From: Escherichia phage FEC19
Sequence record: MH816966
DNA: 64,000 nucleotides
Reading direction: 5' to 3' (one strand)
Under the pieces are notes generated by a model. That model saw nothing but the letters and a program-made list of their open reading frames with translations, had not been told where the DNA came from and did not search any database. Of the stretch, positions 14,688 through 39,822 are shown piece after piece (the first letter of the stretch is position 1; every line of letters begins with the position of its first letter). Made by a program: the position numbers and the translations under genes.

Positions 14688-14716
14688 CTTTCTTTCCTTC
14701 GGTGATCAATACCTGC

Positions 14717-14744
14717 AGTATAATATTGAGTGATACAAAGTCAA
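14717..14744 (-). promoter_or_regulatory. sigma70-like promoter (TTGACT-16-TATACT) for the primase operon
   Basis: Read from reverse complement upstream of ATG 14687. Confidence 0.5.
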
Positions 14745-14780
14745 CAATATTTACCATTTAGTTCACAATTTCGATTTACT

Positions 14781-14809
14781 TTGCTTTATACTATATCTGC
14801 AATTATACT
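14781..14809 (+). promoter_or_regulatory. sigma70-like promoter (TTGCTT-17-TATACT) for the plus-strand replication block
   Basis: Divergent from the minus-strand promoter in the same gap. Confidence 0.5.
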
Positions 14810-14847
14810 ATCAGAAAATATTTCCGCACTAACAAAGGTCGCCTGAA

Positions 14848-15174
14848 ATGAACGAAAAAGATACGAAGCAACGCGAACGTGCAACACACGTCGGCATCGT
14901 TGAGTCCTTCCTTAATACAAGACTGAATTCAAGTCTTACAATTATGCGATTCCTGGGTCAACCAGACAGAATCAAATTCATCTTTGCCGCAAATCCGGTA
15001 TCGCTTTACATCCCTGTTGAATCCATGGCGTACCTGGTGCGCGACGAGCAAGGGTGGAAGATACCAAACACGACTGTTTTCTTCAGCCACGTTGACGGTG
15101 AGATGTTTGAACGAAAAGAAGATTGCCATTTTATTCCAGTATATCTGGACCTTGAAAGCGTAGTGGAGTTATAA
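14848..15174 (+). CDS. hypothetical protein, first gene of plus-strand block
   Basis: 108-aa ORF; stop overlaps helicase start. Confidence 0.45.
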   Translation: MNEKDTKQRERATHVGIVESFLNTRLNSSLTIMRFLGQPDRIKFIFAANPVSLYIPVESMAYLVRDEQGWKIPNTTVFFSHVDGEMFERKEDCHFIPVYLDLESVVEL

Positions 15175-16358
15175 TGAACATTCCAGAATTTAATAATGAG
15201 CCAGTGATTCAGTTCAACGCGCAACAGATTGATGCCATCGAAAAGGCCGTTGCATGGTACAAGCGATTGCAGGACGGTAAAACGACGAAGCGCGTGTTTT
15301 TCATCGCTGGCTATGCAGGAACAGGTAAAACCTCTATTGCGCGTGAGATTGTGCGCCGTTGTGTCGGTGAGTACGGTGCCATTTATATTGCGCCGACCGG
15401 AAAGGCCGCCAGCCGATTGAAGCAGAAAGGGTGTCGTGGCGCGAAGACCCTTCACCAGTTCATCTATAACGTGCGCGGCGTAAATGACGACAATGAGCCA
15501 ATATTTTCGAGAAAGTCAAAGCTGGACGAAAAGCCGCATCTTGTAGTCCTTGATGAAGCTTCAATGGTTGGCGAGTGGGATACAGAGCGCCTTCTTGATC
15601 ACCGCATCCCTGTGCTGGCATTAGGCGACATTGGACAAGTCCCTCCAGTAAAAGCCGCCGCCTACTTTACTGAAGATGCCGTTGACGTCCTGTTAACCGA
15701 AATCATGCGGCAGGGGAAAGAGTCCAACATAATCCGCGCTTCCTTCTTCGTGCGACAGGGCAACCGACTTCCTCCGCGTGAATACGATGACGTAAAGGTG
15801 TTGGCTGAATCGCCGCGCGTTACCGCGCTGAAGAAATTCATGGGCGAAGATGATCAAATTATTTGTTCATATAATAGCACTAAAGATAAATGGAATTCAT
15901 TATTGCGACAAGTGAGCGGACGTATAACGCCAATGCCAGGAATCGGCGAGAAAGTTATTTGCACATTCAACCAACACGGGCCAGGATTCTGTAATGGCGA
16001 GCAAGGGATTGTTATTAGTTATGAGCCAGTGCCGGACTTTGAAAGGGATGAAGACGAGTCTAATGAAATCATGTATGTCAATTTGCGCTCGCTTACCGAT
16101 GGCAAGGATATAAAGGTTAAGATCAATCCTCTTTCCTTCTCTACTGATCAGGAAGTGCGCAAAGAGGCTCAACGCGCTGTTGGAGGTATGGACTATGGCT
16201 ATGTCATAACGGTGCACAAATCGCAAGGCAGCGAGTGGGACAATGTGTGCGTGCTGGAAGAAATCTTGCGCGGCGTTCCGTATGCCAAGATGATGTACAC
16301 AGCCATCACCCGCGCTAAGAAGAATCTGACCGTGTACCGTGATTTGAAAGCGCGTTAA
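15174..16358 (+). CDS. SF1 DNA helicase (RecD/Dda-like)
   Basis: GYAGTGKT Walker A, VVLDEASMV motif II, C-terminal ITVHKSQGSEWDNV. Confidence 0.8.
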   Translation: MNIPEFNNEPVIQFNAQQIDAIEKAVAWYKRLQDGKTTKRVFFIAGYAGTGKTSIAREIVRRCVGEYGAIYIAPTGKAASRLKQKGCRGAKTLHQFIYNVRGVNDDNEPIFSRKSKLDEKPHLVVLDEASMVGEWDTERLLDHRIPVLALGDIGQVPPVKAAAYFTEDAVDVLLTEIMRQGKESNIIRASFFVRQGNRLPPREYDDVKVLAESPRVTALKKFMGEDDQIICSYNSTKDKWNSLLRQVSGRITPMPGIGEKVICTFNQHGPGFCNGEQGIVISYEPVPDFERDEDESNEIMYVNLRSLTDGKDIKVKINPLSFSTDQEVRKEAQRAVGGMDYGYVITVHKSQGSEWDNVCVLEEILRGVPYAKMMYTAITRAKKNLTVYRDLKAR

Positions 16359-16517
16359 TGTTGACGTAAATTTACGAAAAATAAAACTGAAAATCAGTTT
16401 AATTAAAGTGGCATCGCCGCCAGAGTTTTTAGTTGCTACTGGCGGCGACTGAAGGCATAATTAAGTTATCCCAAACGGGGAATATAAAATAAACTAATTT
16501 ATTTAAGGACTGTGAAT

Positions 16518-17357
16518 ATGGCCGAAGCAATCAAAGTATTATCTAAAGAAGAAAAACAAGCAGCTGCAGCAGAACGTCGTCGCGTGGCTGAAGAAAAACG
16601 CCTGGCTAAAAAGAAAGAAGCCGAAGAAAAACGCCAGAAGCGTGAGCAGGAAAAACAAGCCAAGCGTGAAGAAGCTGCGCTGAAACGCAAGCAGGCTGCT
16701 GATGAGAAGGCTCAGAAGCGTGCTGAAGAAGCAGCGAAGAAAGCCAAAGAGCGTGCAGAAAAGGCTGCTGCTAAGAAAGCAGAGCGTGAAGCCGCTAAAG
16801 CAGCAAAAGAAATCGAAAAGGCAAAGGCTAAAGAAGAAGCCAAGCGCCTGAAAGCTGAACAAGCTGCTGCTAAGAAAGCAGAGCGTGATCAAGCCCGTGC
16901 TGCAGCGAAGGCCGAAAAAGAGAAGGCCAAAGAAGAAGCTAAAGCGAAACGCAAGGCAGAGCGTGAAGCTGCTAAGATTGCGGCTAAAGAAGCTGCAGAA
17001 AAGCAGAAAGAACAGCGTAAGAAAGAAGCTGAAGAACGTCGCAAAGCCATCGCAGAACGTAAGGCTGCTAAAAAGGCAAACGGTCAGCGTCGTGCAAAAG
17101 CAACCCACTTCATCTACACTGGCAATGGCCTGAGCCAGCCGCAAGAGCATTCCACCCGTGGACGCGTTCTGGCGGCGATCAAAGAAGGCGAAGTTGGCGT
17201 GGCGCAGTCTATCGATGAGCTGGGCGAAAAAGTTAAAGATCAACTGTTTGGCGCTTCCGTTCGCTCCTACCTGAGCAAGCTGGAAGAGATGGGCCACATC
17301 GAGTTTGTCGATGTTGAATCCAACGAAGATGCCGAAGACGGTGATCAAGCGGAATAA
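16518..17357 (+). CDS. K/A/E-rich low-complexity charged-repeat protein with small globular C-terminal domain
   Basis: ~200 aa of AEEKR/AKKAER-type repeats; ATG at 16518 preferred over GTG at 16512 (AAGGA RBS). Confidence 0.55.
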   Translation: MAEAIKVLSKEEKQAAAAERRRVAEEKRLAKKKEAEEKRQKREQEKQAKREEAALKRKQAADEKAQKRAEEAAKKAKERAEKAAAKKAEREAAKAAKEIEKAKAKEEAKRLKAEQAAAKKAERDQARAAAKAEKEKAKEEAKAKRKAEREAAKIAAKEAAEKQKEQRKKEAEERRKAIAERKAAKKANGQRRAKATHFIYTGNGLSQPQEHSTRGRVLAAIKEGEVGVAQSIDELGEKVKDQLFGASVRSYLSKLEEMGHIEFVDVESNEDAEDGDQAE

Positions 17358-17384
17358 CCTTAGGACGGTTATGCAGCGGTAATT

Positions 17385-17411
17385 GACCCACACTTGTTGT
17401 GGGTCTTTTTT
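17385..17411 (+). terminator. intrinsic terminator
   Basis: gacccaca / tgtgggtc stem followed by tttttt. Confidence 0.7.
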
Positions 17412-17489
17412 CATCTGTACTAAATAAAATGACTTGTTGCTGTAAAATAATTTAGCTATTATACTTCTCATATCACCCACAAAGGACAA

Positions 17490-18485
17490 ATGAACATGAA
17501 ACAACCTGTAATGATTATCGGCGGCGGACTGGCAGGACTTATCACCGCGTGTCACTTCCCGAACTCTGTTGTGTACGAAGCAGGGGAACGAGCGCAACAG
17601 CACAAGGCGCTGCTACGCTTTCGCAGCGAAGAAGTAAGCCGTATTACCGGAATCCCTTTTAAGGCCGTGACAGTTGACAAGGCTGTGTATTTTCGCGGCA
17701 ACTACTATCACGACCATTGCCCAATCAACCTTGCCAATATGTATTCCATGAAGGTCACCAATCAATTTGGCAGCCGTTCAATCATGAAGCTTAAGACTGC
17801 AACGCGTTATATTGCGCCTGATGACTTTTATGATCAGCTTGTCGACAAACTGGGTGACCGCATATTCTTTGATACTCCGGTTGATACTCTTTGCGGCTAT
17901 AGCGAGACGCCAATCATCAACACGTCGCCGCTGCCAGTAATGATGAAGCTTGCTGGGATTGATCAAAAGCTTGATTTCTCATTTGATAAAGCAAACATTC
18001 GCGTTTACCGCTTTAAGATTAAACGTAAGTGTGATTTGTATCAGACAATTTACTTCCCTGACTACTCCGTCAGAACTTACCGCGCATCAATTACTGGTGA
18101 CACGCTTATCATTGAAACAATTCCTTTGGTCAGCGTGAGTGAAGCTGCAGTTGAAGCCGCTGGCGGCATCACTCGTTACCGTGACATGAAGCTGCGCGCA
18201 GAAGTCGACGAAGTGTTGACAGCCTTTGGCCTCTCATGGAGTGACATTGCTCTTGAAGAAGTTGAAAAGGTCGACCAGAAATATGGCAAGATTGTCGACA
18301 TTCCGAAAGACTTGCGACACGCCCTACTCCTGCAGCTGACTATGGATTTGAACGTGTTCAGTGTCGGTCGATTTGCTACCTGGCGCAACATTTTGCTTGA
18401 TGACGTTGCCCATGACCTTGTTGAAGTTGAAAAACTCATCAAAGCAAATAACTATCAAAAATTTGCTTATATTGCTAATAAATAA
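17490..18485 (+). CDS. FAD/NAD(P)-binding Rossmann-fold oxidoreductase
   Basis: N-terminal VMIIGGGLAGLITA (GxGxxG) followed by acidic residue. Confidence 0.55.
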   Translation: MNMKQPVMIIGGGLAGLITACHFPNSVVYEAGERAQQHKALLRFRSEEVSRITGIPFKAVTVDKAVYFRGNYYHDHCPINLANMYSMKVTNQFGSRSIMKLKTATRYIAPDDFYDQLVDKLGDRIFFDTPVDTLCGYSETPIINTSPLPVMMKLAGIDQKLDFSFDKANIRVYRFKIKRKCDLYQTIYFPDYSVRTYRASITGDTLIIETIPLVSVSEAAVEAAGGITRYRDMKLRAEVDEVLTAFGLSWSDIALEEVEKVDQKYGKIVDIPKDLRHALLLQLTMDLNVFSVGRFATWRNILLDDVAHDLVEVEKLIKANNYQKFAYIANK

Positions 18486-18550
18486 TTTGCTTTCTGCTTC
18501 AATGGGCGTATACTTTAATCATTGAAGCAGAACTCATAGAGGAAACGAAA

Positions 18551-18997
18551 ATGAAACGAATCACTGGAATCGCGCTTGCCGCTACTGCTATTCTCGGCAC
18601 CATGTATATGGAAGCGACTGAAGCTGCCATCCGTACTTCCGATTCAATCGCTGTTTACGATTGCGAAGCGATGGACGGCAAGACCTCAGCAACGACTGGT
18701 GCAAAGATTACCACTTACATCGGTGTGAACGAGCAAGAAGGTCTGAATATTCAGATTCAAGGATTCACAGGGAAAGGTACCAACCGTACTCCGTGGATGC
18801 AACGTTTCACTTTCGTCCAACCTCGTTCAACTGGCGACTTTATCAATCTGATTGGTGAAAACCGTTCTGGTGCAGAAATCTTTACATCAATGAGTTCTAA
18901 TAATGAACCAAAGAAAAGTTTTCAGTTGCTTTATAACGCACAATTCGTTTATCATTGCACCTTCTCTGGTGATCAGCAACTAGTGAATTACCGTTAA
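18551..18997 (+). CDS. hypothetical protein with N-terminal signal-peptide-like segment
   Basis: MKRITGIALAATAILGTMYMEA; preceded by 11-bp perfect inverted repeat flanking TATACT. Confidence 0.45.
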   Translation: MKRITGIALAATAILGTMYMEATEAAIRTSDSIAVYDCEAMDGKTSATTGAKITTYIGVNEQEGLNIQIQGFTGKGTNRTPWMQRFTFVQPRSTGDFINLIGENRSGAEIFTSMSSNNEPKKSFQLLYNAQFVYHCTFSGDQQLVNYR

Positions 18998-19010
18998 TAG
19001 GATAATTAAA

Positions 19011-19841
19011 ATGAAAGTTGAATTAATTCGATACACCCAAGATGCACTTGACCTTTTGCTGGAAACAAAGAACACGCGCATGACTGGTAAGCCTGTCTCT
19101 GAGATGACGGAATCAGAGAAGCAAGAGCATTGGCGCTACATGCTTGATACAATCAAGTCGCCTTTTGACTTTGTGGACTATATCTTTGACATCACCGATG
19201 TTTCAAAGAATATGACCCATCAGATGGTGCGCACACGCACAGGCGCATATCAAGAACGCACCAGCCGCGCTCAGGAGTCGTCTGCATTTGATGCGATTCG
19301 TCCGAAGGCATTCTCACACCAAAATCCAGAGTTGATTGATCAATGTGAAGCATTTGGGACTGATGAAGAGCACCAGTCTTTACTTCAAAAGCAATACTTA
19401 GCAGAGAAGTGGGATGATGCGATGGCGACTATCGATGTTTTGTATCAAGAGCTTCGCGCGGCTGGCGCAGAGATTCAAGATGCACGTGCCGTGTTGCCTT
19501 CTAATATGCAAACGCATATCATGGCAAAGTTCAACTTGCGCACGCTGCAACAGATGGCGTCAAACCGCTTGTGCACGCGCACTCAAGGCGAGTATCAAGA
19601 AGTATTCCGCGCGATGGTTGCTGAAGTCCTCAAGGTGCACCCGTGGGCAAATCCATTATTACAGCCGCAATGCATCGGTATGGGTAAATGCGCGTTTCCT
19701 CGTCATGGCAAAGCCCATTGCCCTTGGTATCGTGATTGGATGGATACCACGGCACAGCAAGAAGAGTTGCGCATCCAGTTTTGGAGTGCGATGCCAATCA
19801 CCAACAATCCAGTTGCTAAAGATGGAGTATCAAAAGGATGA
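19011..19841 (+). CDS. ThyX-like protein (flavin-dependent thymidylate synthase family), divergent
   Basis: Segment DITDVSKNMTHQMVRTRTGAYQERTSR resembles the ThyX RHR-x7/8-S region but with RTR; Cys/His-containing C-terminal extension. Confidence 0.5.
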   Translation: MKVELIRYTQDALDLLLETKNTRMTGKPVSEMTESEKQEHWRYMLDTIKSPFDFVDYIFDITDVSKNMTHQMVRTRTGAYQERTSRAQESSAFDAIRPKAFSHQNPELIDQCEAFGTDEEHQSLLQKQYLAEKWDDAMATIDVLYQELRAAGAEIQDARAVLPSNMQTHIMAKFNLRTLQQMASNRLCTRTQGEYQEVFRAMVAEVLKVHPWANPLLQPQCIGMGKCAFPRHGKAHCPWYRDWMDTTAQQEELRIQFWSAMPITNNPVAKDGVSKG

Positions 19842-20710
19842 GCATTAAAAACAGCGAAATCTTAAACGTATTCGACCTTGACGGAACGCTGTTTGATGAC
19901 CGTTGGCGCTTAGACCGCATCAAGGTGGCAGGTCCGTTGTCAGACTATGATGACTATCACAGCGGTATTGGTTATGATCAGTTCTATCCTCACATTGCAT
20001 CAGCAGTAGAGTCGGCATCTCTTCGCGGTGAGGCGGTTGAATATTGGACTGCAAGGCCAGAAAAATACAGACAAGTGACTTTTGAACGTCTGGATAATGT
20101 TTTTCCTTTTGATGAATTTACAATCAAGATGAGAGACTATGGCGACAAACGTCCATCAACTATTATGAAATCTGCATGGCTATCGCACGCATTGCGGCAC
20201 GGCGATTATCGAATCATCAATGTATTCGACGACCGACAAGACGTACTCGCGCGGATGCAAGATGAAGCATTGTATTATAATTCCGTTGCTCAAAATAAAA
20301 TCGCTTTTACATTTAATCTTTGCAAGGCAGGTGAAGTGGTGCAACAATTAGCAATTGATCCAAGCGCAACAGGGCAAGAAGAGACTAAGGCTGTGGAAGT
20401 TGAACAATCTCCGGCAACTGCCGCCGATATTCTTGATGCAATGGCAGCAACCTTCCGTGAGCGCAACGCTGTCTATGGTGATAACGCTGTGATGGTAGGT
20501 CAGGTTATGCAAGTGCTTTTCCCTAATGGCGTGACGTTGAAAACGCCGGAAGACTACCACATGTGGCATCTGTTCGAGCTTAAGATTGTCAAGCTTACAC
20601 GCTTCGCAATCAGCGGCCTGAAGCACGAAGACTCTATACACGATGATGGTGTTTACAGCGCCATGTGTGAACGTCTTGTTAACGCCCATAATATTAATTT
20701 CAATAAATAG
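19838..20710 (+). CDS. HAD-superfamily phosphatase with additional C-terminal domain
   Basis: VFDLDGTLFDD (DxDGT) and NVFDDRQD motifs; ~130-aa C-terminal region of unknown function. Confidence 0.55.
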   Translation: MSIKNSEILNVFDLDGTLFDDRWRLDRIKVAGPLSDYDDYHSGIGYDQFYPHIASAVESASLRGEAVEYWTARPEKYRQVTFERLDNVFPFDEFTIKMRDYGDKRPSTIMKSAWLSHALRHGDYRIINVFDDRQDVLARMQDEALYYNSVAQNKIAFTFNLCKAGEVVQQLAIDPSATGQEETKAVEVEQSPATAADILDAMAATFRERNAVYGDNAVMVGQVMQVLFPNGVTLKTPEDYHMWHLFELKIVKLTRFAISGLKHEDSIHDDGVYSAMCERLVNAHNINFNK

Positions 20711-20775
20711 TTTACTTGTGCGTTTCGATGAGTTATATTTATCTCATCGAAACGAAGTCCAAAAAGGATAAATAA

Positions 20776-21459
20776 ATGAAAAAAGTAATTGTTGTAACTG
20801 GCTGCAATTCCGGTCTTGGTAAATCCATTTTTGACACCCTTGGCGCTTACGGTCATGAAGTTGTCGGTATTGATTTGGAGAACGGCTATGACATCCGTAA
20901 CGCGAAACAGATGAAAGAGCTTCTCTCTCAATACGACGTAGAAGGCTTGATCAACTGCGCTGGCGTCAACTCCAACAACTGGTTCGAAGATGTTAACTAC
21001 GAAGAGTTCAATCGCGTTATGCACACCAACGCCTTCTCTTTCGTCAACACGACTCAGGCCGCGCTGAAAAGTCTTATCGACAACAAAGGTTTTGTGATCA
21101 ATATCGTTTCTAACGCTGCGCATATTCCTATGACGTCCAGCTTGTGTTATAATGCTTCCAAGGCTGCTGCGCTCATGATTAGCAAGCAGATGGCTCACGA
21201 GCTTACGCCTAAATACGGGATCACGGTATTCTCTATTAGTCCTAACAAGCTACGTGGTACTGGCATGTCCAAACAAATTGAAGATGCTGTTTGCGCGACT
21301 CGCGGCTGGACTCCTGAGTATGCTGCTGAATACCAGAAAAAGGCGTTGATGAATGGATTGGAGACTGAGCCGCAAGTAATTGCTGACTTCATTCGCCATA
21401 TCTTAATTACGGGCGCATGGCGCTTTATGTCTGGTACTGATATTCCATTTGGGAAATAA
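20776..21459 (+). CDS. short-chain dehydrogenase/reductase (SDR)
   Basis: VTGCNSGLGKS cofactor motif and YNASK catalytic motif. Confidence 0.8.
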   Translation: MKKVIVVTGCNSGLGKSIFDTLGAYGHEVVGIDLENGYDIRNAKQMKELLSQYDVEGLINCAGVNSNNWFEDVNYEEFNRVMHTNAFSFVNTTQAALKSLIDNKGFVINIVSNAAHIPMTSSLCYNASKAAALMISKQMAHELTPKYGITVFSISPNKLRGTGMSKQIEDAVCATRGWTPEYAAEYQKKALMNGLETEPQVIADFIRHILITGAWRFMSGTDIPFGK

Positions 21460-21462
21460 ATC

Positions 21463-21633
21463 ATGACTATCAAAGTTGTTGTAGAAGTGATTGGCGACGT
21501 GGCAGAAGTGAAGATTGATCAAGAAGGCGTTGGATTTGAAGTAATAAGAATCGAAAACGCAAAGATTAACCACGAGCGCGTCGGTTCAATTGAGACTTAT
21601 TCCATAGAAGGCAACACAGTAATTAATCAATAA
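21463..21633 (+). CDS. small hypothetical protein (56 aa, not in ORF track)
   Basis: Fills gap between SDR and VOC genes; weak RBS. Confidence 0.3.
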   Translation: MTIKVVVEVIGDVAEVKIDQEGVGFEVIRIENAKINHERVGSIETYSIEGNTVINQ

Positions 21634-21653
21634 TATTTAATTAAGGAAACAAA

Positions 21654-22205
21654 ATGCCACATTTTAAAATTGAACAAATCGCCCTGTCAATTCCAGATGC
21701 TCAGCGCGCACAGGATTTTCTGGCTAAAATCGGCCTGACAGAATGGTTCCATGATCATGTTGTTGCTACTGGTCGCGTATTTGAAGCTGATGACTTTAAA
21801 GGTCAGCGCGGCGATTGCACCAACGAAGCTGACTTGCGCTTCAACTATCAAGCTGGCAACGGCACCGATGGCGGCGCTGGTAAGCCTCTTGAACTTGAAA
21901 TTCTTGACTACACGAAAGGCCGCAACTGGATTAACGAAAACATCGAATACATCGATGCACATGACAATCAGGTTAGCCATCTTGGTATGCACGTGACTGC
22001 CGCTGAACTTGCTGAATGGCGCAAGTTCTTTAAAGAAGAAGGCATTCAGGTTGCGCAGGAAGTTGTGACCGACTCTCACACCAACCCAAACATTGCTGGT
22101 CAGCGTCGTTACAACTATGTGATCTTTGATACGCGTGAAATCATTGGTGTCGACCTTAAGTTCATCGTGCGGTTGAATCAAGACGGTACTCCGTACACTG
22201 TATAA
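21654..22205 (+). CDS. VOC-fold (glyoxalase/dioxygenase-like) protein, putative
   Basis: Two beta-alpha-beta-like modules with His residues (HFKIEQIALSIPD, SHLGMHV); weak. Confidence 0.4.
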   Translation: MPHFKIEQIALSIPDAQRAQDFLAKIGLTEWFHDHVVATGRVFEADDFKGQRGDCTNEADLRFNYQAGNGTDGGAGKPLELEILDYTKGRNWINENIEYIDAHDNQVSHLGMHVTAAELAEWRKFFKEEGIQVAQEVVTDSHTNPNIAGQRRYNYVIFDTREIIGVDLKFIVRLNQDGTPYTV

Positions 22206-22221
22206 CGAATCGTGAATCTGT

Positions 22222-22247
22222 GGCCGTCCTAATGGGCGGCCTTTTTG
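22222..22247 (+). terminator. intrinsic terminator
   Basis: ggccgtcc taat gggcggcc then ttttt. Confidence 0.6.
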
Positions 22248-22259
22248 TAGGAGGCCAAT

Positions 22260-22802
22260 GTGTTATTTCTCCCTTATGACTTCGAAACAACCGGATTAAC
22301 CGTGCACCCGAAAGCGCCGCTTGGAATGCAGCCGCGCCCTATTGAATTTGCAGGCCTGTTGACGGATGGAAAAGAGATTCTTGAAACTTTCGAGTTCATA
22401 ATTAATCCTGAAATTGTGATTGAAGAAATCATCACAAAGATTACCGGATTAACCAATGAAGACCTTGAGTGCAATCCACCCTTTATTCATTTCGTTCCGC
22501 AACTAAAAGACATCTTCAAGAAGACTGATGCCACTATCGCGCACAACCATGCGTTCGATAAGAACATCCTTGATTATGCATTGCAGCGCGAAGGTCTTAC
22601 ACTTGGTGATGTTAATTTTCCAGAAATAAACATTTGTACAGTCGAGCAAACCTTGCCTATTTTTGGCCGAAGAGTTAAGCTTCAAGAGCTGTATGAATTA
22701 TATTTCGGAAAATATGAACAGAAGCACCGTGCATTAGACGACGTAATATTACTGCACAAAGTCTGCCAACAAATTGGCGTATATGACATCTGGAGTAAAT
22801 AA
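22260..22802 (+). CDS. dnaQ: DnaQ-like 3'-5' proofreading exonuclease
   Basis: Exo I YDFETTG, Exo II AHNHAFD, Exo III HRALDD; GTG start with strong GGAGG RBS. Confidence 0.8.
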   Translation: MLFLPYDFETTGLTVHPKAPLGMQPRPIEFAGLLTDGKEILETFEFIINPEIVIEEIITKITGLTNEDLECNPPFIHFVPQLKDIFKKTDATIAHNHAFDKNILDYALQREGLTLGDVNFPEINICTVEQTLPIFGRRVKLQELYELYFGKYEQKHRALDDVILLHKVCQQIGVYDIWSK

Positions 22803-25699
22803 TGTTTCCACAATTGAGAGTTCGCAGCGGTTACACGTTCAAAGAAGTATATGGACGGCATCCTGAAATTATAGCACGGCTCAAAGAGTTGGGCTGCGAA
22901 GTCGCGGCATTAGTTGATAACAATACATGGGGTCACGTTCGCTGGGAAAAGGAATGCCAGAAAAATGATATTAAGCCTATGTTCGGCATGGAGATTCCAA
23001 TCATCGACCCTGATGCGGACCCGAAAAAGGGATTCAAACCGAAGGCTTGGATATTGGCGCTTGACCTGAAATCCTTTTACAATGCGACCACGCTTGCAAC
23101 ACAGCGCGGCGGATTGACCCGTGCAGAGTTCGGGGCGCTGGATGGCGTCGTTAAATTCTGTGGCGGTGCCGTGGAGCTGCTGCGGCCAGAGGACTACGAT
23201 TATATAGACGTCAACCCATCATCGTTCCTTTTGGCCAAGCGCCAGGTATTGGCTCACCGCAGCAACGGAAGGCCGCTGGTTTTAACCGGATACAACCACA
23301 TGCCTTCACCTGAGCACGTTGACTTTGCTTATGCTTGGGAAGTGCGCGACACGGTTAAGCCGCACTGCATCGTTGACGCGGAAGACTTGCGCAAACAGCT
23401 TAAAGGAATCCTGACCGAAGATGAGTTGAATCAAGCAACGGCCAATGCGGTTGATATTGCAAACGGAATCGTTGGGCTTGACCTGAAGCTGCGCAAGGCA
23501 CCGATTATCCACCTTGCTGGTGACATGGTAAAGCTTGCTCGTGAGGGGATGGAGTACCGCCTCAAAGCAGGTCACATCAAAGAATGGACGCAGGAATATG
23601 AGGACCGATTCAACGAAGAGATTCACCAGATTCAGCTGAAAGATTTCGACTCATACTTTCTGGTGGTAGCGGACCTTGTACGATTTGCAAAAACAAAAAT
23701 GCTCGTCGGACCCGCTCGCGGCTCATCGGCTGGTTCACTGGTTTGTTATTGCCTCGGCATCACGGAAGTTGACCCAATCCCGTATAAGCTGCTATTTGCC
23801 CGATTCATCGACGTAAGCCGCGCCGACCTCCCTGATATTGATATTGACTTTGAGGACACCAAACGCTATATGGTGTTTGATTACCTCAAAGAAAAATACG
23901 GCGAAATGAACGTTGCAAAGCTTGGAAACATCAACACGCTTAAGGCCAACTCAGTAATGGCTCAGGTTGGTAAGAAGTTCAACATTGGATATCACGAAAC
24001 GGCCAACATTAAAAACGCATTGCTTGAATACTCATCCGGTGACGCCCGTTATGGTCACGGTCTGGAGGATACCTTTGCAACAACGACCACGGGCCAAGAG
24101 TTCGTGGCGAAATATCCTGACGCCGCGCGATGCATGGGTGACCTTGAGATTCACCCTTCTCACACTGGCGTTCATGCAGCGGGAATCATTGTGTGTAATG
24201 ACCCAATCTCTGATTACTGTACTGTAACGGCGGAAGGGATTGCGCAAATTGATAAGCCTGACAGCGAATACCTTAACCTTTTGAAGCTTGATGCGTTGGG
24301 CCTTCGTACCCTCGGCATCATTTCTGATACTGGCGTGATAGATGCTGAAACGCTGTACGGAATCAAGCTTGATGATCAAAGCGTCCTTGACATCCTTAAC
24401 GAAAACAAAATGTCAGGCATCTTCCAGTTTGAAGGTGACGCTGTACGCTCAGTAACCAACTTTGTGCACGTTGATAACTTTAACAAAATCGATAACCTGA
24501 CAGCACTTGGTCGACCTGGCCCGTTGTCATCCGGTATGGCCCAAAAATACATCGAACGCGCGGCAGGACGTGCGCCGATTGAGTACGACGTGCCGCAGCT
24601 TGAGCCGTACTTAAAAGAGACTTACGGCGTGTTCCTTTACCAAGAGCAAATCATGGCCGTGGTTAAAGAGATTGGTTCATTTGACTGGGCGAAAACATCA
24701 GCCGTGCGTAAGGCGATGTCAGGTCGTAAGGGTGAGGAATACTTTAACAAGCTTGGCGAAGACTTCGTTGCAGGCGCAATAAATAACGGCGTACCGGAAG
24801 CGGATGCAAGAAAGCTTTGGCAGGCGATGGCGACGTTCGGGTCATGGGGCTTTAACAAGTCACACTCCGTGTCATACGCGGTCGTAACCTACTGGACCTT
24901 GTGGCTTAAACGACACTACCCGTTGGAATTTGCCGCTGCTTGCTTACGCGCTGCTAAGGACGAAGACCAGACGATTGCGATATTACGTGAACTTGCGAAG
25001 GAAGGCGTGGATTATGTGCCAATCGACCCTGATCACTCTTCAATGAACTGGACCATCGCTAACGGAAAGCTAATCGGCGGCATCATGAACGCTAAAGGGT
25101 ACGGAATGGTGAAGGCGATGAAGTACATCGAAGCACGTGAAGCCGGAACCTTAACGCAAAAGCAGAAGGATGCATTGGCCAATGCTGAAGTCAAATACGG
25201 CGACCTTACAGAGATGCACACCAAGTTCGGCTGGGCATATAATGACCCATATCTTATTGGCGTCACTTCCGGCGCTTCAATACGCCAGATGAAGGAAGTA
25301 GGCGATGATGAGCGTGCAATAGTAATCGGCAAACTGACCAAGAAAGTGCTGGCAGACGAGAACGAAGCAACACGCATCCGTAAACGTCTTGAGCGCGGCA
25401 TTTACACAAAGCACGGCAAACTTAAAAAGGGTCTTCAAGCTGATGGTCGCTACGCAGAGTTTGACCAGTATGGAAACAAGCTTGAAACTCAATTCATCGA
25501 CCTTATGTGCAAGGACGATTCGACCGACTCGCCAATGCGCTTCAGGATTCGCCCAGAGAAGTTCCAGAAATACGGGAAGTACATTGCAGAGAACGTCGGG
25601 AACGGTGCATTCTTCCTGATGAAAGGCCGCAAGCTTGAAGGTATTGATATGTTCATCGTCGACGTTATCAAACAGGTGTATCCAGATGGCAACAAATAA
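22802..25699 (+). CDS. dnaE: DNA polymerase III alpha-like (DnaE family, PHP N-terminus)
   Basis: N-terminal LRVRSGYTF PHP-like start, PDIDIDFED catalytic aspartates, LLKLDALGLRTL motif; 965 aa. Confidence 0.85.
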   Translation: MFPQLRVRSGYTFKEVYGRHPEIIARLKELGCEVAALVDNNTWGHVRWEKECQKNDIKPMFGMEIPIIDPDADPKKGFKPKAWILALDLKSFYNATTLATQRGGLTRAEFGALDGVVKFCGGAVELLRPEDYDYIDVNPSSFLLAKRQVLAHRSNGRPLVLTGYNHMPSPEHVDFAYAWEVRDTVKPHCIVDAEDLRKQLKGILTEDELNQATANAVDIANGIVGLDLKLRKAPIIHLAGDMVKLAREGMEYRLKAGHIKEWTQEYEDRFNEEIHQIQLKDFDSYFLVVADLVRFAKTKMLVGPARGSSAGSLVCYCLGITEVDPIPYKLLFARFIDVSRADLPDIDIDFEDTKRYMVFDYLKEKYGEMNVAKLGNINTLKANSVMAQVGKKFNIGYHETANIKNALLEYSSGDARYGHGLEDTFATTTTGQEFVAKYPDAARCMGDLEIHPSHTGVHAAGIIVCNDPISDYCTVTAEGIAQIDKPDSEYLNLLKLDALGLRTLGIISDTGVIDAETLYGIKLDDQSVLDILNENKMSGIFQFEGDAVRSVTNFVHVDNFNKIDNLTALGRPGPLSSGMAQKYIERAAGRAPIEYDVPQLEPYLKETYGVFLYQEQIMAVVKEIGSFDWAKTSAVRKAMSGRKGEEYFNKLGEDFVAGAINNGVPEADARKLWQAMATFGSWGFNKSHSVSYAVVTYWTLWLKRHYPLEFAAACLRAAKDEDQTIAILRELAKEGVDYVPIDPDHSSMNWTIANGKLIGGIMNAKGYGMVKAMKYIEAREAGTLTQKQKDALANAEVKYGDLTEMHTKFGWAYNDPYLIGVTSGASIRQMKEVGDDERAIVIGKLTKKVLADENEATRIRKRLERGIYTKHGKLKKGLQADGRYAEFDQYGNKLETQFIDLMCKDDSTDSPMRFRIRPEKFQKYGKYIAENVGNGAFFLMKGRKLEGIDMFIVDVIKQVYPDGNK

Positions 25700-26108
25700 C
25701 CGCGAGCAAAAATACATATTCGTTCCTTTGAAGAAGCATTCAGAATCAATATTGAAGCTTCAACGAATCGAATCGATGACTGGTGATGGCGTGCCGGACG
25801 TAATCGGCACCAACCGGAAAGGTCGCGGCTTTTGGCTTGAAATGAAGTTCTTTGAATCGTGGCCTGCAAGGGCCACCACTGCACCTTTCAGAAATGCATT
25901 TGAGAAAGGTCAGTGCAGCTTTCTTTCTTCGTGGAATGATTGGAAATACCCATCATTTGTTTTGCTTAAAGTCGATTCTGAGAAGATGTTTTATTTAGTC
26001 CACCCTTCGATTGAATTAAAGCGTTATAATATTGCAGACGTTCAACGTGAGATAATCGTGAAGGGAACTATTCACCACATCATTAAGTATTTAGAGGAAT
26101 TGTCATGA
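25686..26108 (+). CDS. VRR-NUC / PD-(D/E)xK-type nuclease, putative
   Basis: PDVIG...GRGFWLEMK arrangement; start at ATG overlapping dnaE stop. Confidence 0.5.
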   Translation: MATNNREQKYIFVPLKKHSESILKLQRIESMTGDGVPDVIGTNRKGRGFWLEMKFFESWPARATTAPFRNAFEKGQCSFLSSWNDWKYPSFVLLKVDSEKMFYLVHPSIELKRYNIADVQREIIVKGTIHHIIKYLEELS

Positions 26109-27628
26109 AAACACAAGGGATGCGCCACCAGCTTCTGGCGCTTGATAAAGCAGGCCGCAGAAAATACTTTGCCTATTTCATGGAACAGGGTCTTGGTAAA
26201 ACTTGGACCGCTTTGGCAGAGTTTGAAAAGCACTTCACCGCTGGCGCGTTCGATGCCATGGTAGTCATCGCTCCAAACGGTGTCCACTCAAACTGGATTC
26301 GTCGTGAAGCGCCAGAGCACCTTTCCATCAAGTGGATTGGGCACTACTGGCGCGGCAACGATAAGATGAAAACTAAAAAGGGCAAGGCGCTTTGGGAGAA
26401 GATGTTTGCTGATCACTACCCCGAAGGCGAAGTGCCTGCGCGCATCTTCTCATTCAACATCGATACTGTCAACACACCAGTCGGTTATCAACACATCGAG
26501 TCGGTCTTGAAGAAGTACCGCTGCCTGATGATCATCGACGAATCAACGCGCATCAAGAATAACACAGCCAAACGCTCCATCAAGGTTGTGGAATTGGGAC
26601 GGCTGGCAAAGGCCCGTCGAATCCTTTCTGGCACGCCGTTGCCGCGCTCGCCTGCGGATATTTACATGCAATACCACTTCCTTGAAGCAGGATTGCTCGG
26701 CACCAAATCATTCCGTGCCTTTAACTCTGAATTTACAGTGCTGCTTGAAGCGCACGACCCAGAGATGCAAGCCATCCTCAAGAAAATCGGCGGCAATGGC
26801 TATGGGATTCCGCAAGTGCCGCGCAAAGACCAGTTTGGCCGACCGATGTACAAGAACCTTGACAAGCTTATCCGGCTGATGGAACCGCACTATTTTCGTG
26901 CAACAAAAGCAGAATACTTGCCTGACCTTCCAGAGAAGGTGTACAAGTTTATTGACTTCGAGTTGTCGCCTAAACAACGCGATGTTTACGATGAACTCAA
27001 GAATGAGTACAACTATTTGATGGAATACAAGGGCGAAGAAGAAAACGTCAAGTTTGAGATGATCGCGTCGCGCACTAAGATGAAGCAGGTGACATCCGGC
27101 TTTGTTAAGGTGTATGATGAGATGGTCTACATGGAAGACAACCCACGATTCACGGCCTTTAAGGATTATGTGGAAGGTGTGCTGGAAGATGACCCAGAGC
27201 GCAAATTCATCGTTTGGGCCATCTTTAAGGAAGAGATGAACCAGATTAAGGACTGGCTTGAGTCTGAAGGCGTGGTCACTGGTGTATACAATGGTGAAAC
27301 GTCCAAAGAGCAGCGAGAGTTCTTAATTGATGACTTCCAGAAGAATACAGTCGAGAACGGCGGAACGCAAGTCTTGGTTTGCCACGCTGCAGCGGCAGGC
27401 ATCGGCATCACTCTTACCGCCGCTGACTTGGCAATTTATTATTCTTGCAACTACGACAACGAGCTGCGCAAACAATCCGAAGACCGAAATCACCGCATCG
27501 GCACCAAATCAAGCGTGTTGTATGTTGATTTTATTGGTGTTGATACCATCGACGAAGAAATTCAGCGTTCACTCAGTATGAAGTCAATGCTTGCTGATCA
27601 CATCCTCGACGGCAAAAAGATGAATTAA
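26105..27628 (+). CDS. SNF2-family helicase/ATPase
   Basis: GLGKTWTAL motif I, MIIDESTRIKN motif II, C-terminal helicase region. Confidence 0.8.
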   Translation: MKTQGMRHQLLALDKAGRRKYFAYFMEQGLGKTWTALAEFEKHFTAGAFDAMVVIAPNGVHSNWIRREAPEHLSIKWIGHYWRGNDKMKTKKGKALWEKMFADHYPEGEVPARIFSFNIDTVNTPVGYQHIESVLKKYRCLMIIDESTRIKNNTAKRSIKVVELGRLAKARRILSGTPLPRSPADIYMQYHFLEAGLLGTKSFRAFNSEFTVLLEAHDPEMQAILKKIGGNGYGIPQVPRKDQFGRPMYKNLDKLIRLMEPHYFRATKAEYLPDLPEKVYKFIDFELSPKQRDVYDELKNEYNYLMEYKGEEENVKFEMIASRTKMKQVTSGFVKVYDEMVYMEDNPRFTAFKDYVEGVLEDDPERKFIVWAIFKEEMNQIKDWLESEGVVTGVYNGETSKEQREFLIDDFQKNTVENGGTQVLVCHAAAAGIGITLTAADLAIYYSCNYDNELRKQSEDRNHRIGTKSSVLYVDFIGVDTIDEEIQRSLSMKSMLADHILDGKKMN

Positions 27629-27702
27629 TATCAAAAATAATTTGACTTGTCACGGAAGATGAGTCATAATTACTTCATCGAAACGAAATAGAGGAATACA
27701 AA

Positions 27703-27966
27703 ATGGTACGCATCCTTGAACGTTACAAAAATGAAGCTACTGGCGCAATCGCGTTCAAACGTCTTTTGGTCAAAGAAATTGACGGTATGTTCCGCGTTGT
27801 AAAAGAGTTTGATTATGGCAACGGTGCTGGGGTGAATACCGTAATTATGCCTGGCATCAAGGCATATAAGACTTTAAAAGGCGCTGAGAAGGCTTTGGCG
27901 GCTTGGAAACCTGAACGTTATCAAATGACCCGTGTTGAAGGGCTAATGCAAGAAGGTAAAATATGA
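27703..27966 (+). CDS. hypothetical protein
   Basis: 87-aa ORF with promoter-like TTGACT-18-ATAATT upstream. Confidence 0.45.
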   Translation: MVRILERYKNEATGAIAFKRLLVKEIDGMFRVVKEFDYGNGAGVNTVIMPGIKAYKTLKGAEKALAAWKPERYQMTRVEGLMQEGKI

Positions 27967-39040: not shown

Positions 39041-39765
39041 TCTATCATATTCCCAGTTCTGTTTCCAGGCCCGTTACCGATATGCCCGTGAGTGGATACA
39101 TCAATGCCGCCGACCGTTGTGCCAGTCGGAAGCGTTGCCGTCGTTCCTTCTTTGCCTTCTATCCCACCATTGAATGTTGCTTTTCCATTTACTATCAATT
39201 GTTGATCGATAGTGGTTATCGGGGTCTTGACGTTTACTCCAGCAGACGCAGTTATGTTTATTGAGTCATCGCTTAGTGCAATTCTCACAGCGCCGCTGAG
39301 GGATTGAATTACCATTGACCCCGCATCCTCTCCGCTTATGGTGTATTTTCGGAATACATCCGGTATGAACAGTCCATCAGCGAAAGTTTTTACACGGCCA
39401 TTGGTAGGCGCGGTCGGCTTCAATTCTTCAAGGAATGTCGACAACTCGCGGTCGCCAGCGAATATCCAGCCCAAGTCGCCTTCCTTCAAAGGGAAGTTGA
39501 TCACGAATCCGCCGCCGCCGATTGCCAGTACCGGAATTGACACCAAAGGTTGACGCTCCACTGGCTTATCATCAAGACTTACGAAATGAATAACAGGTTT
39601 TATGACTGCTAAATTTTTCTTGCGGTCATAAGATATTACTTGCGCAGGAATCATGCCATCAGTGGTATACTTGCCACGGTCCAGCATTCCCTGAAGCGCG
39701 GCAAACATACTTGATTTGTCAGTTTGGTTGGGGCTTGTAAGTTGGGTTAACTTTTCTGCCATCAT
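39037..39765 (-). CDS. tail/baseplate structural protein
   Basis: AGGAG RBS before trimmed start MMAEKL. Confidence 0.45.
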   Translation of the reverse strand: MMAEKLTQLTSPNQTDKSSMFAALQGMLDRGKYTTDGMIPAQVISYDRKKNLAVIKPVIHFVSLDDKPVERQPLVSIPVLAIGGGGFVINFPLKEGDLGWIFAGDRELSTFLEELKPTAPTNGRVKTFADGLFIPDVFRKYTISGEDAGSMVIQSLSGAVRIALSDDSINITASAGVNVKTPITTIDQQLIVNGKATFNGGIEGKEGTTATLPTGTTVGGIDVSTHGHIGNGPGNRTGNMIE

Positions 39766-39822
39766 AGACTCCTTATATCTGATCAACAAATTATAATCTA
39801 TAAGGAGTCTATAAGCAATATT

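What the first reader, a model, noticed from the sequence alone, without database searches (positions are those of the whole stretch)
18497..20760. Perfect inverted repeats flanking -10-like hexamers upstream of plus-strand genes
An 11-bp perfect inverted repeat (ctgcttcaatg ... cattgaagcag) flanks TATACT at 18497-18533, and a 12-bp perfect inverted repeat (cgtttcgatgag ... ctcatcgaaacg) flanks TTATATTTAT at ~20726-20759. A related partial palindrome with the same catcgaaacgaa arm occurs at ~27660-27685, and the leaders share a TAGAGGAA ribosome-binding region. These look like operator-embedded promoters or RNA processing hairpins controlling the middle genes.
Basis: seen in the sequence. Interest (0 to 1): 0.45.

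Follow-up and report, generated by a model that had tools for sequence, protein, structure and literature searches.

The report
Phage promoters embedded inside RNA hairpins
Two short gaps between genes of an E. coli phage (genus Wifcevirus) each hold a host-type promoter wrapped in a perfect inverted repeat, so RNA reading through from upstream can fold a hairpin that RNA started at the promoter cannot; this layout is already known from T4-like phages and is new here only for this phage group.

Summary
The window is a Wifcevirus, a myophage of E. coli distantly related to Pseudomonas PB1-like phages. Site 1 is a 13-bp perfect inverted repeat (18492-18504 / 18520-18532) enclosing TATACT. Site 2 is a 12-bp perfect repeat (20721-20732 / 20743-20754) enclosing TATATT. 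Six perfect repeats of at least 12 bp occur where 0.10 are expected.

Both sites are sigma-70-type promoters. The 5' arm lies in the -35/-10 spacer, the -10 hexamer in the loop, and the 3' arm begins at the predicted transcription start. A third element of the same build lies on the minus strand at 39764-39812, before the baseplate-spike gene. Its 3' arm is the ribosome-binding site.

The arm sequences are unrelated, which argues against a shared repressor operator. The few substitutions, the G-U pairs and the sense/antisense energy difference point to a sense-strand RNA hairpin.

At sites 1 and 2 the hairpin does not cover the ribosome-binding site. Its likely role is to insulate, attenuate or stabilise the 3' end of upstream transcripts. 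At the spike gene it masks translation of read-through RNA, as at T4 gene e, and relatives in other genera keep this structure with different sequences.

The closest known kinds are the PeSL promoter/stem-loop cassettes of T4-like phages and the T4 gene e hairpin. This is a new member of a known kind, and no function has been tested.

The parts
18487..18492 (+). Site 1 -35 hexamer TTGCTT, preceded by A/T-rich AATAAATAAT. It begins 2 nt after the stop codon of gene 17490-18485.
   Evidence: PWM 10.5 bits, spacer 16
18492..18504 (+). Site 1 5' arm TTCTGCTTCAATG, lying in the promoter spacer.
   Evidence: clamp z -4.5
18509..18514 (+). Site 1 -10 hexamer TATACT, in the hairpin loop.
18520..18532 (+). 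Site 1 3' arm CATTGAAGCAGAA. The predicted +1 is A at 18521, so promoter-initiated RNA lacks the 5' arm.
   Evidence: inference for +1: 7 nt after the -10
18537..18553 (+). Site 1 ribosome-binding site TAGAGGAA and the ATG (18551) of a 148-aa gene with no Pfam match. This stretch is not covered by the hairpin.
   Evidence: opening energy 1.9 vs 2.8 kcal/mol
20711..20716 (+). Site 2 -35 hexamer TTTACT, immediately after the TAG stop (20708-20710) of the PNK-phosphatase-like gene.
   Evidence: (13.3 bits, spacer 17)
20721..20732 (+). Site 2 5' arm CGTTTCGATGAG, lying in the spacer.
   Evidence: clamp z -4.0
20734..20739 (+). Site 2 -10 hexamer TATATT, in the loop.
20743..20754 (+). Site 2 3' arm CTCATCGAAACG. 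The predicted +1 is A at 20746. The leader AUCGAAACGAA is identical to that of site 3.
20764..20778 (+). Site 2 ribosome-binding site AAGGA and the ATG (20776) of the FabG-like short-chain dehydrogenase gene.
27642..27703 (+). Site 3: promoter TTGACT (27642-27647)-17-CATAAT (27665-27670). A hairpin inside the promoter core pairs 27643-27651 with 27658-27666 and includes two G-U pairs. The leader CATCGAAACGAA is at 27676-27687, TAGAGGAA at 27689-27696 and the ATG at 27703. The element is 77-78% identical to site 2 over 65 nt.
16414..16461 (+). Neighbouring element of the same class. The 10-bp repeat TCGCCGCCAG / CTGGCGGCGA (16414-16423 / 16439-16448) has the -35 hexamer TTGCTA (16433-16438) in its loop; the -10 hexamer CATAAT is at 16456-16461. 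It is the only site with a compensatory change among relatives: C-G to U-G to U-A.
   Evidence: z -4.8
39764..39818 (-). Third -10-enclosing repeat, on the minus strand before the baseplate-spike gene (39037-39765). The -35 hexamer TTGCTT is at 39818-39813, the 5' arm ATAGACTCCTTATA at 39812-39799, the -10 hexamer TATAAT at 39795-39790, and the 3' arm TATAAGGAGTCTAT at 39777-39764. The 3' arm contains the ribosome-binding site AAGGAG and the first two bases of the ATG.
   Evidence: z -4.5; z -5.8; 18.1 vs 1.9 kcal/mol

Best explanation
Sites 1 and 2 are composite promoter/stem-loop elements. Each is a sigma-70-type promoter, read by the host RNA polymerase, that starts an internal transcription unit: the first covers the 148-aa gene, thyX and the PNK-phosphatase gene, and the second covers the FabG-like gene and what follows.

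A 12-13-bp inverted repeat is laid over each promoter in the only way that leaves both hexamers free. The 5' arm sits in the spacer, the -10 hexamer in the loop, and the 3' arm in the first transcribed bases.

The consequence depends on where a transcript begins. RNA that reads through from the upstream promoter contains both arms and folds a stable hairpin (about -17 to -19 kcal/mol) between the two cistrons. RNA started at the embedded promoter (predicted +1 at 18521 and 20746) begins inside the 3' arm and has an unstructured leader of about 30 nt.

At sites 1 and 2 the hairpin stops 5-8 nt short of the ribosome-binding site. I therefore infer that it acts on the upstream transcript, insulating the units by pausing or attenuating polymerase and/or by forming a 3' end that resists exonucleases. 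It does not appear to act on translation of the downstream gene.

The same build at 39764-39812 does cover the ribosome-binding site. There it should silence translation of read-through RNA, as at T4 gene e.

Shown: the repeats, their non-randomness, the promoter geometry, the predicted folding energies, strong purifying selection on the gaps, and structure-not-sequence conservation at the spike gene. Inferred: the transcription start positions, that the hairpin forms in vivo, and what it does.
For: Non-randomness.
- Six perfect repeats of at least 12 bp are found against 0.10 expected.
- Three of them enclose a -10 hexamer. The other three are an iteron array (two) and a terminator-like hairpin.

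Specific to a few real promoters.
- Pairing between the spacer side and the transcribed side is extreme only for site 1 (z -4.5), site 2 (z -4.0) and 39790 (z -5.8), out of 17 intergenic promoters.
- None of 45 promoter-like matches inside genes falls below -2.1.

Promoter reality.
- Promoter-like hits are enriched in the 7.6% of the window that is non-coding.
- The -35/-10 hexamers are kept at homologous gaps in Kyle and MyoSmar while the spacers differ.
- Sigma-70-like promoters are mapped in the related phage 14-1.

RNA rather than DNA or protein.
- The arm sequences are unrelated between sites.
- The only substitution in a site 2 arm changes G-C to G-U on the sense strand.
- At 16414 the series C-G, U-G, U-A is seen.
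- Sense-strand folds beat antisense folds in 16 of 21 elements, by 2.0 kcal/mol on average (Wilcoxon p = 0.001; 13 of 18 if variants of one site are counted once).

Constraint. Intergenic mismatch among 9 relatives is 1.0%, against 11.3% at third codon positions. Site 1 has 0 mismatches in 585 aligned cells and site 2 has 4 in 585.

Effect on translation. Opening the ribosome-binding site and start codon costs about the same in both RNA forms at site 1 (1.9 vs 2.8 kcal/mol) and site 2 (5.2 vs 3.7). At the spike gene it costs 18.1 vs 1.9.

Spike hairpin in other genera, with different arms.
- Kyle: z -5.35, opening energy 19.7 vs 9.5 kcal/mol.
- PA1-like contig: z -3.1, opening energy 22.5 vs 2.8 kcal/mol.
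- Phage 14-1: weaker, z -1.9.

Precedent. PeSL cassettes place stem-loops between the -35 and -10 boxes or over the -10 box (PMC2839356). T4 genes e, soc, 49 and I-TevI follow the same transcript-origin logic (PMC3014915).
Against: - There are no transcript data for any Wifcevirus, so the start sites and read-through are predictions.
- The long -10-enclosing repeats of sites 1 and 2 are confined to this genus. At the homologous gaps, Kyle and MyoSmar have only short hairpins (5-8 bp) inside the spacer, and whole-gap folding z-scores there are not significant (-0.8, -1.8, +0.1).
- Within the genus the gaps are almost invariant, loops included, so there is no real covariation test for sites 1 and 2, and the constraint cannot be assigned to pairing specifically.
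- Neither hairpin is followed by a U-tract, so neither fits a canonical intrinsic terminator.
- A simple count of promoter hits falling in repeat loops is only marginal: 3 observed against 0.95 expected at a 9-bit threshold.
- The outgroup promoter set was chosen by eye.
Confidence: 0.6

Rival explanations
1. The hairpins are RNase III (or other endonuclease) processing sites, as between phage T7 early genes. Cleavage would separate the cistrons of read-through RNA and leave a protective 3' hairpin on the upstream message.
For: The hairpins are intercistronic, lie just upstream of a ribosome-binding site, and form only in read-through RNA. The spike-gene hairpin reaches about 19-21 bp with an internal bulge.
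Against: The stems at sites 1 and 2 are 13-15 bp with loops of 4-15 nt, shorter than the roughly two helical turns of classical substrates (my own knowledge). No Rfam family matches. There are no cleavage data.
Confidence: 0.12
2. The repeats act at the DNA level, either as operators for a dimeric phage or host repressor that covers the -10, or as cruciforms that make promoter activity depend on supercoiling.
For: The symmetry is perfect in DNA. The centre of site 2 is A/T-rich (TTATATTTAT), which favours extrusion. The arms bracket exactly the region melted by polymerase.
Against: The three enclosing repeats share no arm sequence, so three different proteins would be needed. The elements span 34-49 bp with loops of 10-21 bp, which is unfavourable both for HTH dimers and for cruciform extrusion. 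The observed changes give G-U pairs on the sense strand but A-C on the other, and sense folds are systematically more stable. Related genera keep a hairpin but move it relative to the hexamers.
Confidence: 0.1
3. The hairpins at sites 1 and 2 mask translation, as at T4 gene e. Read-through RNA would be poorly translated and only promoter-initiated RNA would express the downstream gene.
For: The architecture matches the spike-gene element, where masking is clear, and the T4 paradigm.
Against: The 3' arms end 5 and 8 nt before the ribosome-binding sites. The computed opening energies for the ribosome-binding site and start codon are about the same in the two RNA forms: 1.9 vs 2.8 and 5.2 vs 3.7 kcal/mol.
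Confidence: 0.08
4. The repeats have no function of their own. They would be by-products of template-switch mutation in already conserved intergenic DNA, kept because the whole gap is constrained as promoter and leader.
For: The repeats are perfect and genus-specific. Loops are as invariant as arms. Outgroups lack them at these two gaps.
Against: It is unlikely that three independent repeats of at least 12 bp arose by chance, all centred on a -10 hexamer in the orientation of the downstream gene. The spike-gene hairpin recurs in other genera with different sequences. Outgroup promoters carry hairpins in the spacer well beyond shuffled expectation (Fisher p = 1.8e-8).
Confidence: 0.1

Closest known systems
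PeSL (promoter-early stem-loop) composite promoter-terminator cassettes of T4-like phages RB49/phi1, PST/T4 and nt-1/KVP40 (Arbiol et al. 2010, PMC2839356; Comeau et al. 2014, PMC4122927)
   Same: A short intergenic cassette made of an A/T-rich stretch, a sigma-70-like -35/-10 pair with a spacer of about 17 nt, a stem-loop placed between the boxes or over the -10 box, and then the ribosome-binding site and ATG of the next gene. The stem-loop is thought to act on transcription coming from upstream.
   Different: - This is not a T4-like phage.
- The stems are long (12-14 bp), perfect and not G/C runs.
- No U-rich tail follows them.
- The cassettes are not a repeated family; only sites 2 and 3 resemble each other (78% over 65 nt).
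- They lie in the conserved replication and nucleotide-metabolism block, not in hyperplastic regions.
- No insertion or deletion among relatives maps to them.
- Terminator activity is untested.
T4 genes e, soc, 49 and I-TevI: an inhibitory hairpin whose 5' strand carries a late promoter (McPheeters et al. 1986, as reviewed in Uzan and Miller 2010, PMC3014915)
   Same: The logic depends on where the transcript begins. Long upstream-initiated RNA folds, while RNA from the promoter inside the structure lacks the 5' strand. The element at 39764-39812 matches fully, because its 3' arm is the ribosome-binding site and start codon.
   Different: At sites 1 and 2 the 3' arm does not reach the ribosome-binding site. 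The embedded promoter is sigma-70-like rather than a TATAAATA late promoter read with gp55. The temporal classes are unknown.
Intercistronic hairpins that stabilise upstream mRNA segments (REP-type elements, 3' hairpins left by T7 RNase III) - from my own knowledge
   Same: A stable hairpin without a U-tract between cistrons of a polycistronic RNA.
   Different: Those elements are not overlaid on a promoter, and no processing or decay data exist here.
Phage N4 early promoters (DNA hairpins read by the virion RNA polymerase) - from my own knowledge
   Same: An inverted repeat at a promoter.
   Different: N4 hairpins have stems of 5-7 bp, 3-nt loops and conserved sequence, and they need a giant virion polymerase. 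The largest ORF in this window is the 965-aa Pol III alpha, and the hexamers here are of sigma-70 type.

Membership tests
PeSL composite promoter/stem-loop cassette | Sigma-70-like -35 and -10 boxes about 17 nt apart, with an A/T-rich region upstream | tested here: met
   TTGCTT-16-TATACT, TTTACT-17-TATATT and TTGACT-17-CATAAT, each preceded by AATAAATAAT-like sequence.
PeSL composite promoter/stem-loop cassette | [quoted passage not shown] | tested here: met
   Sites 1 and 2 enclose the -10 hexamer. Site 3 bridges the -35 and -10 hexamers. The repeat at 16414 encloses the -35 hexamer.
PeSL composite promoter/stem-loop cassette | Ribosome-binding site and start codon of the next gene at the 3' end of a short intergenic cassette | tested here: met
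   The gaps are 65 nt, 65 nt and 74 nt, each ending in a ribosome-binding site and ATG.
PeSL composite promoter/stem-loop cassette | Many copies in the genome that are conserved in sequence | tested here: inconclusive
   Sites 2 and 3 are 77-78% identical over 65 nt. Site 1 and 39764-39812 share only the promoter consensus.
PeSL composite promoter/stem-loop cassette | Location in hyperplastic regions, next to insertions, deletions or gene swaps between close relatives | tested here: not met
   Breakpoints among 5 relatives lie at about 2300-8900, 19303-19401 and 21463-21607, none at the three gaps.
PeSL composite promoter/stem-loop cassette | The stem-loop terminates or attenuates upstream transcription | not testable with these tools
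   This needs reporter or in vitro transcription assays. There is no U-tract after either stem, and neither is called by the terminator scan.
T4 gene e-type translational masking with an internal promoter | The 3' strand of the hairpin sequesters the ribosome-binding site and/or the AUG | tested here: not met
   Sites 1 and 2: opening energies are 1.9 vs 2.8 and 5.2 vs 3.7 kcal/mol. The feature is met only by 39764-39812 (18.1 vs 1.9).
T4 gene e-type translational masking with an internal promoter | The promoter lies in the 5' strand or loop, so the primary transcript lacks the 5' strand | tested here: inconclusive
   The geometry fits: the predicted +1 lies 7 nt after the -10, at 18521 and 20746, inside the 3' arm. 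No 5' ends have been mapped.
Canonical intrinsic terminator | A G/C-rich stem followed directly by a U-tract | tested here: not met
   CTCATAGAGG follows site 1 and AAGTCCAAAA follows site 2. Genuine terminators in the same block (17385, 22222, 29458, 31674) are detected by the same scan.
Repressor operator | A half-site sequence shared by the regulated promoters, with a size fitting a dimer | tested here: not met
   The arms are TTCTGCTTCAATG, CGTTTCGATGAG and ATAGACTCCTTATA, which are unrelated. The elements span 34-49 bp.
RNase III processing site (T7 R1.1 type) | About 20 bp of coaxial helix, cleaved by RNase III | not testable with these tools
   The stems are 13-15 bp at sites 1 and 2. 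Cleavage needs an enzyme assay. No Rfam hit.

The most novel reading that the evidence does not exclude
In the PB1-like group of phages, which have no RNA polymerase of their own, placing promoters inside hairpins could be a general regulatory device without any protein. The same stretch of RNA would be structured or open depending on which promoter made it, and that would set termination, decay and translation unit by unit, and so much of the timing and stoichiometry of expression. A DNA-level version is also not excluded: the perfect A/T-centred palindromes could be cruciform switches that tie these promoters to the supercoiling state of the injected genome.
Probability: 0.12. Interest if true: 0.6.

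Novelty: new member of a known kind. Interest (0 to 1): 0.3.

Why it matters
The work gives a concrete, testable transcription map for a phage genus that has no transcript data. It predicts starts at 18521, 20746, 27677 and about 39783 on the minus strand, together with hairpins specific to read-through RNA. Wifcevirus is of practical interest for its very fast growth and its action against O157 strains.

It also extends the promoter/stem-loop cassette idea beyond T4-like phages. The T4 gene e trick, a promoter inside a hairpin that hides the ribosome-binding site, appears at the baseplate-spike gene in at least three related genera (four if the weaker 14-1 hairpin is counted).

For annotation and engineering, these 65-nt gaps are dense and strongly constrained. 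They vary about as little as non-synonymous sites, so they should not be treated as neutral spacers or used as insertion points.

Tried and rejected
- Covariation within the genus. Eleven Wifcevirus genomes or contigs are almost invariant at these gaps, so no formal test was possible. Scans of viral and metagenome contigs with ThyX added only 10 loci and no new variants.
- Shared operator motif. The arms are unrelated, so this was rejected.
- Canonical terminators. Neither site is called.
- Rfam. There are no hits in the whole window.
- PeSL-style link to gene shuffling. No breakpoints fall at the sites.
- Translational masking at sites 1 and 2. Rejected on opening energies.
- The idea that all promoters of this phage are clamped by repeats. 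Only 3 of 17 are.
- A loop-occupancy test at a 9-bit promoter threshold was only marginal: 3 observed against 0.95 expected.
- Literature. No Wifcevirus transcription study exists. The 14-1 ONT-cappable-seq paper mentions no promoter hairpins, and its supplementary start-site table is not held.
- The two repeats at 54.2-54.5 kb proved to be an iteron array and are unrelated.
Full report
IDENTITY AND CONTEXT

The window is 98% identical to Escherichia phage vB_EcoM-Ro157lw and 90-98% identical to 27 Wifcevirus genomes. More distant relatives are Pantoea phage Kyle, Serratia phages MyoSmar and MTx, and the Pseudomonas PB1-like Pbunavirus phages.

The finding lies in a plus-strand block of replication and nucleotide-metabolism genes at 14848-32320. 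The genes in order are:
- a Dda-like helicase;
- a gene annotated as UDP-galactopyranose-mutase-like in phage Mansfield (no Pfam match here);
- a 148-aa gene with no Pfam match;
- ThyX;
- a PNK-phosphatase-like gene;
- a FabG-like dehydrogenase;
- Pol III alpha, helicases and a ligase.

No Wifcevirus transcription study was found.

THE OBSERVATION

Both inverted repeats are real, and both are slightly larger than reported.

Site 1 has arms TTCTGCTTCAATG at 18492-18504 and CATTGAAGCAGAA at 18520-18532. The loop is 15 nt and holds TATACT at 18509-18514.

Site 2 has arms CGTTTCGATGAG at 20721-20732 and CTCATCGAAACG at 20743-20754. The loop is TTATATTTAT and holds TATATT at 20734-20739.

Perfect repeats of at least 12 bp with loops of 3-32 nt occur 6 times. 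The mean in 200 shuffles is 0.10, and no shuffle reached 6. The six sort as follows:
- two belong to an array of the 9-bp unit GATACGGAT at 54.2-54.5 kb;
- one, at 1392-1429, is followed by TTTTAT and looks like a terminator;
- three enclose a -10-like hexamer: site 1, site 2, and a 14-bp repeat at 39764-39812 on the minus strand.

The 12-mer CATCGAAACGAA is exact at only two places, sites 2 and 3. TAGAGGAA is present at sites 1 and 3 but not at site 2.

THE SITES ARE PROMOTERS

Each site reads as an A/T-rich stretch, a -35 hexamer, a 16-17-nt spacer and a -10 hexamer:
- site 1: TTGCTT-16-TATACT;
- site 2: TTTACT-17-TATATT;
- site 3: TTGACT-17-CATAAT.

Each starts within a few bases of the upstream stop codon and ends about 30 nt before a ribosome-binding site and ATG.

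High-scoring sigma-70 matches are enriched in the 7.6% of the window that is non-coding: 17 of the top 60.

At the homologous gaps of other genera the hexamers and their spacing are kept while the spacer sequence changes. Kyle has TTGCTT-17-GATAAT and TTGACG-17-TATTCT. MyoSmar has TTGACT-17-GATAAT.

In the related phage 14-1, ONT-cappable-seq mapped 26 sigma-70-like promoters, and a tested subset (P001, P018, P036, P038) drove a reporter in E. coli (PMC10914365).

The predicted start, 7 nt after the -10, is an A in every case: 18521, 20746 and 27677. The messages from sites 2 and 3 would begin with the same 11 bases, AUCGAAACGAA. Kyle and MyoSmar keep a similar leader without the complementary spacer.

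GEOMETRY AND WHAT IT IMPLIES

In all three enclosing repeats the 5' arm occupies the spacer, the -10 hexamer lies in the loop, and the 3' arm begins at or just after the predicted start. This is the only way to lay a stem of at least 12 bp over a promoter without touching either hexamer.

It follows that only RNA arriving from upstream carries both arms. Predicted hairpin energies are about -17 to -19 kcal/mol for sites 1 and 2 and -23 kcal/mol or lower for 39764-39812.

A test of pairing between the spacer side and the transcribed side shows the feature is specific. The z-scores are -4.5, -4.0 and -5.8 for the three sites. The other 14 intergenic promoters are not significant, and none of 45 promoter-like matches inside genes falls below -2.1.

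Neighbouring gaps carry other combinations of the same two parts:
- a canonical terminator followed by a promoter, at 17385 and at 31674;
- a 10-bp repeat enclosing the -35 hexamer, at 16414;
- a hairpin bridging the -35 and -10 hexamers, at site 3, with p = 0.004.

RNA, DNA OR PROTEIN?

The three arm sequences are unrelated, so one sequence-specific protein cannot explain them.

Variation within the genus is very scarce, but what exists fits sense-strand RNA pairing. In Bas99 a C-to-T change in the 3' arm of site 2 gives G-U. At 16414 the window has C-G, most relatives have U-G, and Bas99 has U-A.

Across 21 promoter-associated hairpins from four genera, the sense strand folds better than the antisense strand in 16. 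The mean difference is 2.0 kcal/mol, Wilcoxon p = 0.001, and the sense strand has more G-U pairs. Counting variants of one site only once gives 13 of 18.

This evidence is modest but consistent.

CONSTRAINT

Among nine relatives, the mismatch frequency is 1.0% in intergenic DNA. It is 1.4%, 0.7% and 11.3% at codon positions 1, 2 and 3. Site 1 has 0 mismatches in 585 aligned cells and site 2 has 4 in 585.

The gaps are therefore under selection as strong as that on protein sequence. Because loops are as invariant as arms, this cannot be credited to pairing alone.

WHAT THE HAIRPIN DOES

I compared the energy needed to open the ribosome-binding site and start codon in read-through RNA and in promoter-initiated RNA:

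| Site | Read-through RNA (kcal/mol) | Promoter-initiated RNA (kcal/mol) |
|---|---|---|
| Site 1 | 1.9 | 2.8 |
| Site 2 | 5.2 | 3.7 |
| 39764-39812 | 18.1 | 1.9 |

The two reported sites therefore do not mask translation, and the spike-gene element does.

For sites 1 and 2 the remaining roles all act on the upstream transcript: pausing or attenuation, a 3' end that resists exonucleases, or an endonuclease site. Neither hairpin has a U-tract, so they are not canonical terminators. Their stems are short for RNase III. I favour an insulating or 3'-stabilising role, by analogy with PeSL cassettes and intercistronic hairpins. This step is inference.

COMPARATIVE SUPPORT

The gap before the baseplate-spike gene carries the same build with different arms in other genera.

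- Kyle has TTTACT-17-TATAAT with arms ACCTCTTACAGT / ACTGTAAGAGGT. The folding z-score is -5.35 and the opening energy is 19.7 vs 9.5 kcal/mol.
- A PA1-like 69-kb contig has arms TCTCTCCCGGTG / CACCGGGAGAGA around TATAAT. The z-score is -3.1 and the opening energy is 22.5 vs 2.8 kcal/mol.
- Phage 14-1 has a weaker hairpin (z -1.9). Its 5' arm contains CTGGG, the core of the phage-specific promoter motif reported for that phage.

At the equivalents of sites 1 and 2, Kyle, MyoSmar and the PA1-like contig have short G/C-rich hairpins inside the promoter core. Eight of ten are more stable than spacer-shuffled controls at p of 0.072 or less, and the combined Fisher p is 1.8e-8. The promoters in that test were chosen by eye. 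Whole-gap z-scores there are not significant.

The association of a hairpin with a promoter is therefore old in this lineage. The long -10-enclosing version at sites 1 and 2 is specific to Wifcevirus.

COMPARISON WITH KNOWN SYSTEMS

The architecture matches PeSL cassettes of T4-like phages. [quoted passage not shown] One of their stem-loops was shown to terminate transcription (PMC2839356; PMC4122927).

Features not shared here:
- G/C-run stems;
- a multi-copy family, since only sites 2 and 3 are alike;
- location in hyperplastic regions;
- association with insertions and deletions.

The spike-gene element matches the T4 e/soc/49/I-TevI paradigm (PMC3014915).

VERDICT

The promoter reading is supported, the operator reading is not, and the RNA-hairpin reading is plausible once recast as a structure specific to read-through RNA.

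This is a new member of a known kind, in a phage group where it had not been described. Function is untested and interest is moderate to low.

Noticed in passing
window 54219-54501 (565-nt gap 54129-54693 between minus-strand genes): An array of the 9-bp unit GATACGGAT, at least 10 copies in both orientations, including a 22-bp perfect inverted pair 101 nt apart. It looks like iterons: a replication origin, a packaging site or a regulator-binding array. It accounts for two of the six long inverted repeats in the window.
   Followed up: partly
window 39764-39818 (minus strand); L028 338-400; L017 about 2940-2993; L029 331-385: The baseplate-spike gene is preceded by a promoter inside a hairpin that hides its ribosome-binding site. 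The structure is kept, with different sequences, in Wifcevirus, Kylevirus and a PA1-like contig, and more weakly in Pbunavirus 14-1.
   Followed up: yes
window 61138-61222: Promoter-like TTGCTT-17-TAAAAT (-10 ends at 61166) is followed after about 30 nt by a strong terminator, GGCCAGA-TTTTT-TCTGGCC plus a T7 run (61196-61222). This would give an RNA of about 50 nt with no ORF, a candidate small RNA or attenuated leader. The 12-bp palindrome GCTTGTACAAGC (61140-61151) is shared with a divergent minus-strand promoter.
   Followed up: no
window 61253-61310: Promoter TTGCCT-16-TATAAT (-10 at 61275-61280) is followed directly by the hairpin TCATATTAACTC / GAGGTAATATGA (61280-61291 / 61299-61310). 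The hairpin covers the ribosome-binding site and ATG (61307) of the next gene. The predicted start falls inside the 5' arm. Opening energy is 8.7 vs 4.7 kcal/mol.
   Followed up: partly
window 22206-22260: The exonuclease / Pol III alpha / helicase operon has no promoter of its own. It starts 19 nt after a strong terminator (GGCCGTCC-TAAT-GGGCGGCC-TTTTT, 22222-22241), so replication genes would depend on read-through. Kyle has the same arrangement.
   Followed up: no
window 14688-29800: Intergenic DNA varies as little as non-synonymous codon positions among nine relatives: 1.0% against 11.3% at third codon positions.
   Followed up: yes
window about 2300-8900; 19303-19401; 21463-21607: All insertions, deletions and replaced segments among Wifcevirus genomes fall in three places: the block of small minus-strand early genes (often whole genes removed cleanly), a stretch of about 97 nt inside thyX, and the 56-aa ORF after the FabG-like gene.
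   Followed up: partly
window 9400-9470 (minus strand): The early-region promoter-like site GTGATT-17-TATAAT has an imperfect repeat around the -10 hexamer: TCAAG...CTTGA plus an outer GATTTC/GAAATC pair. It was not significant in the pairing test (z -1.1).
   Followed up: partly
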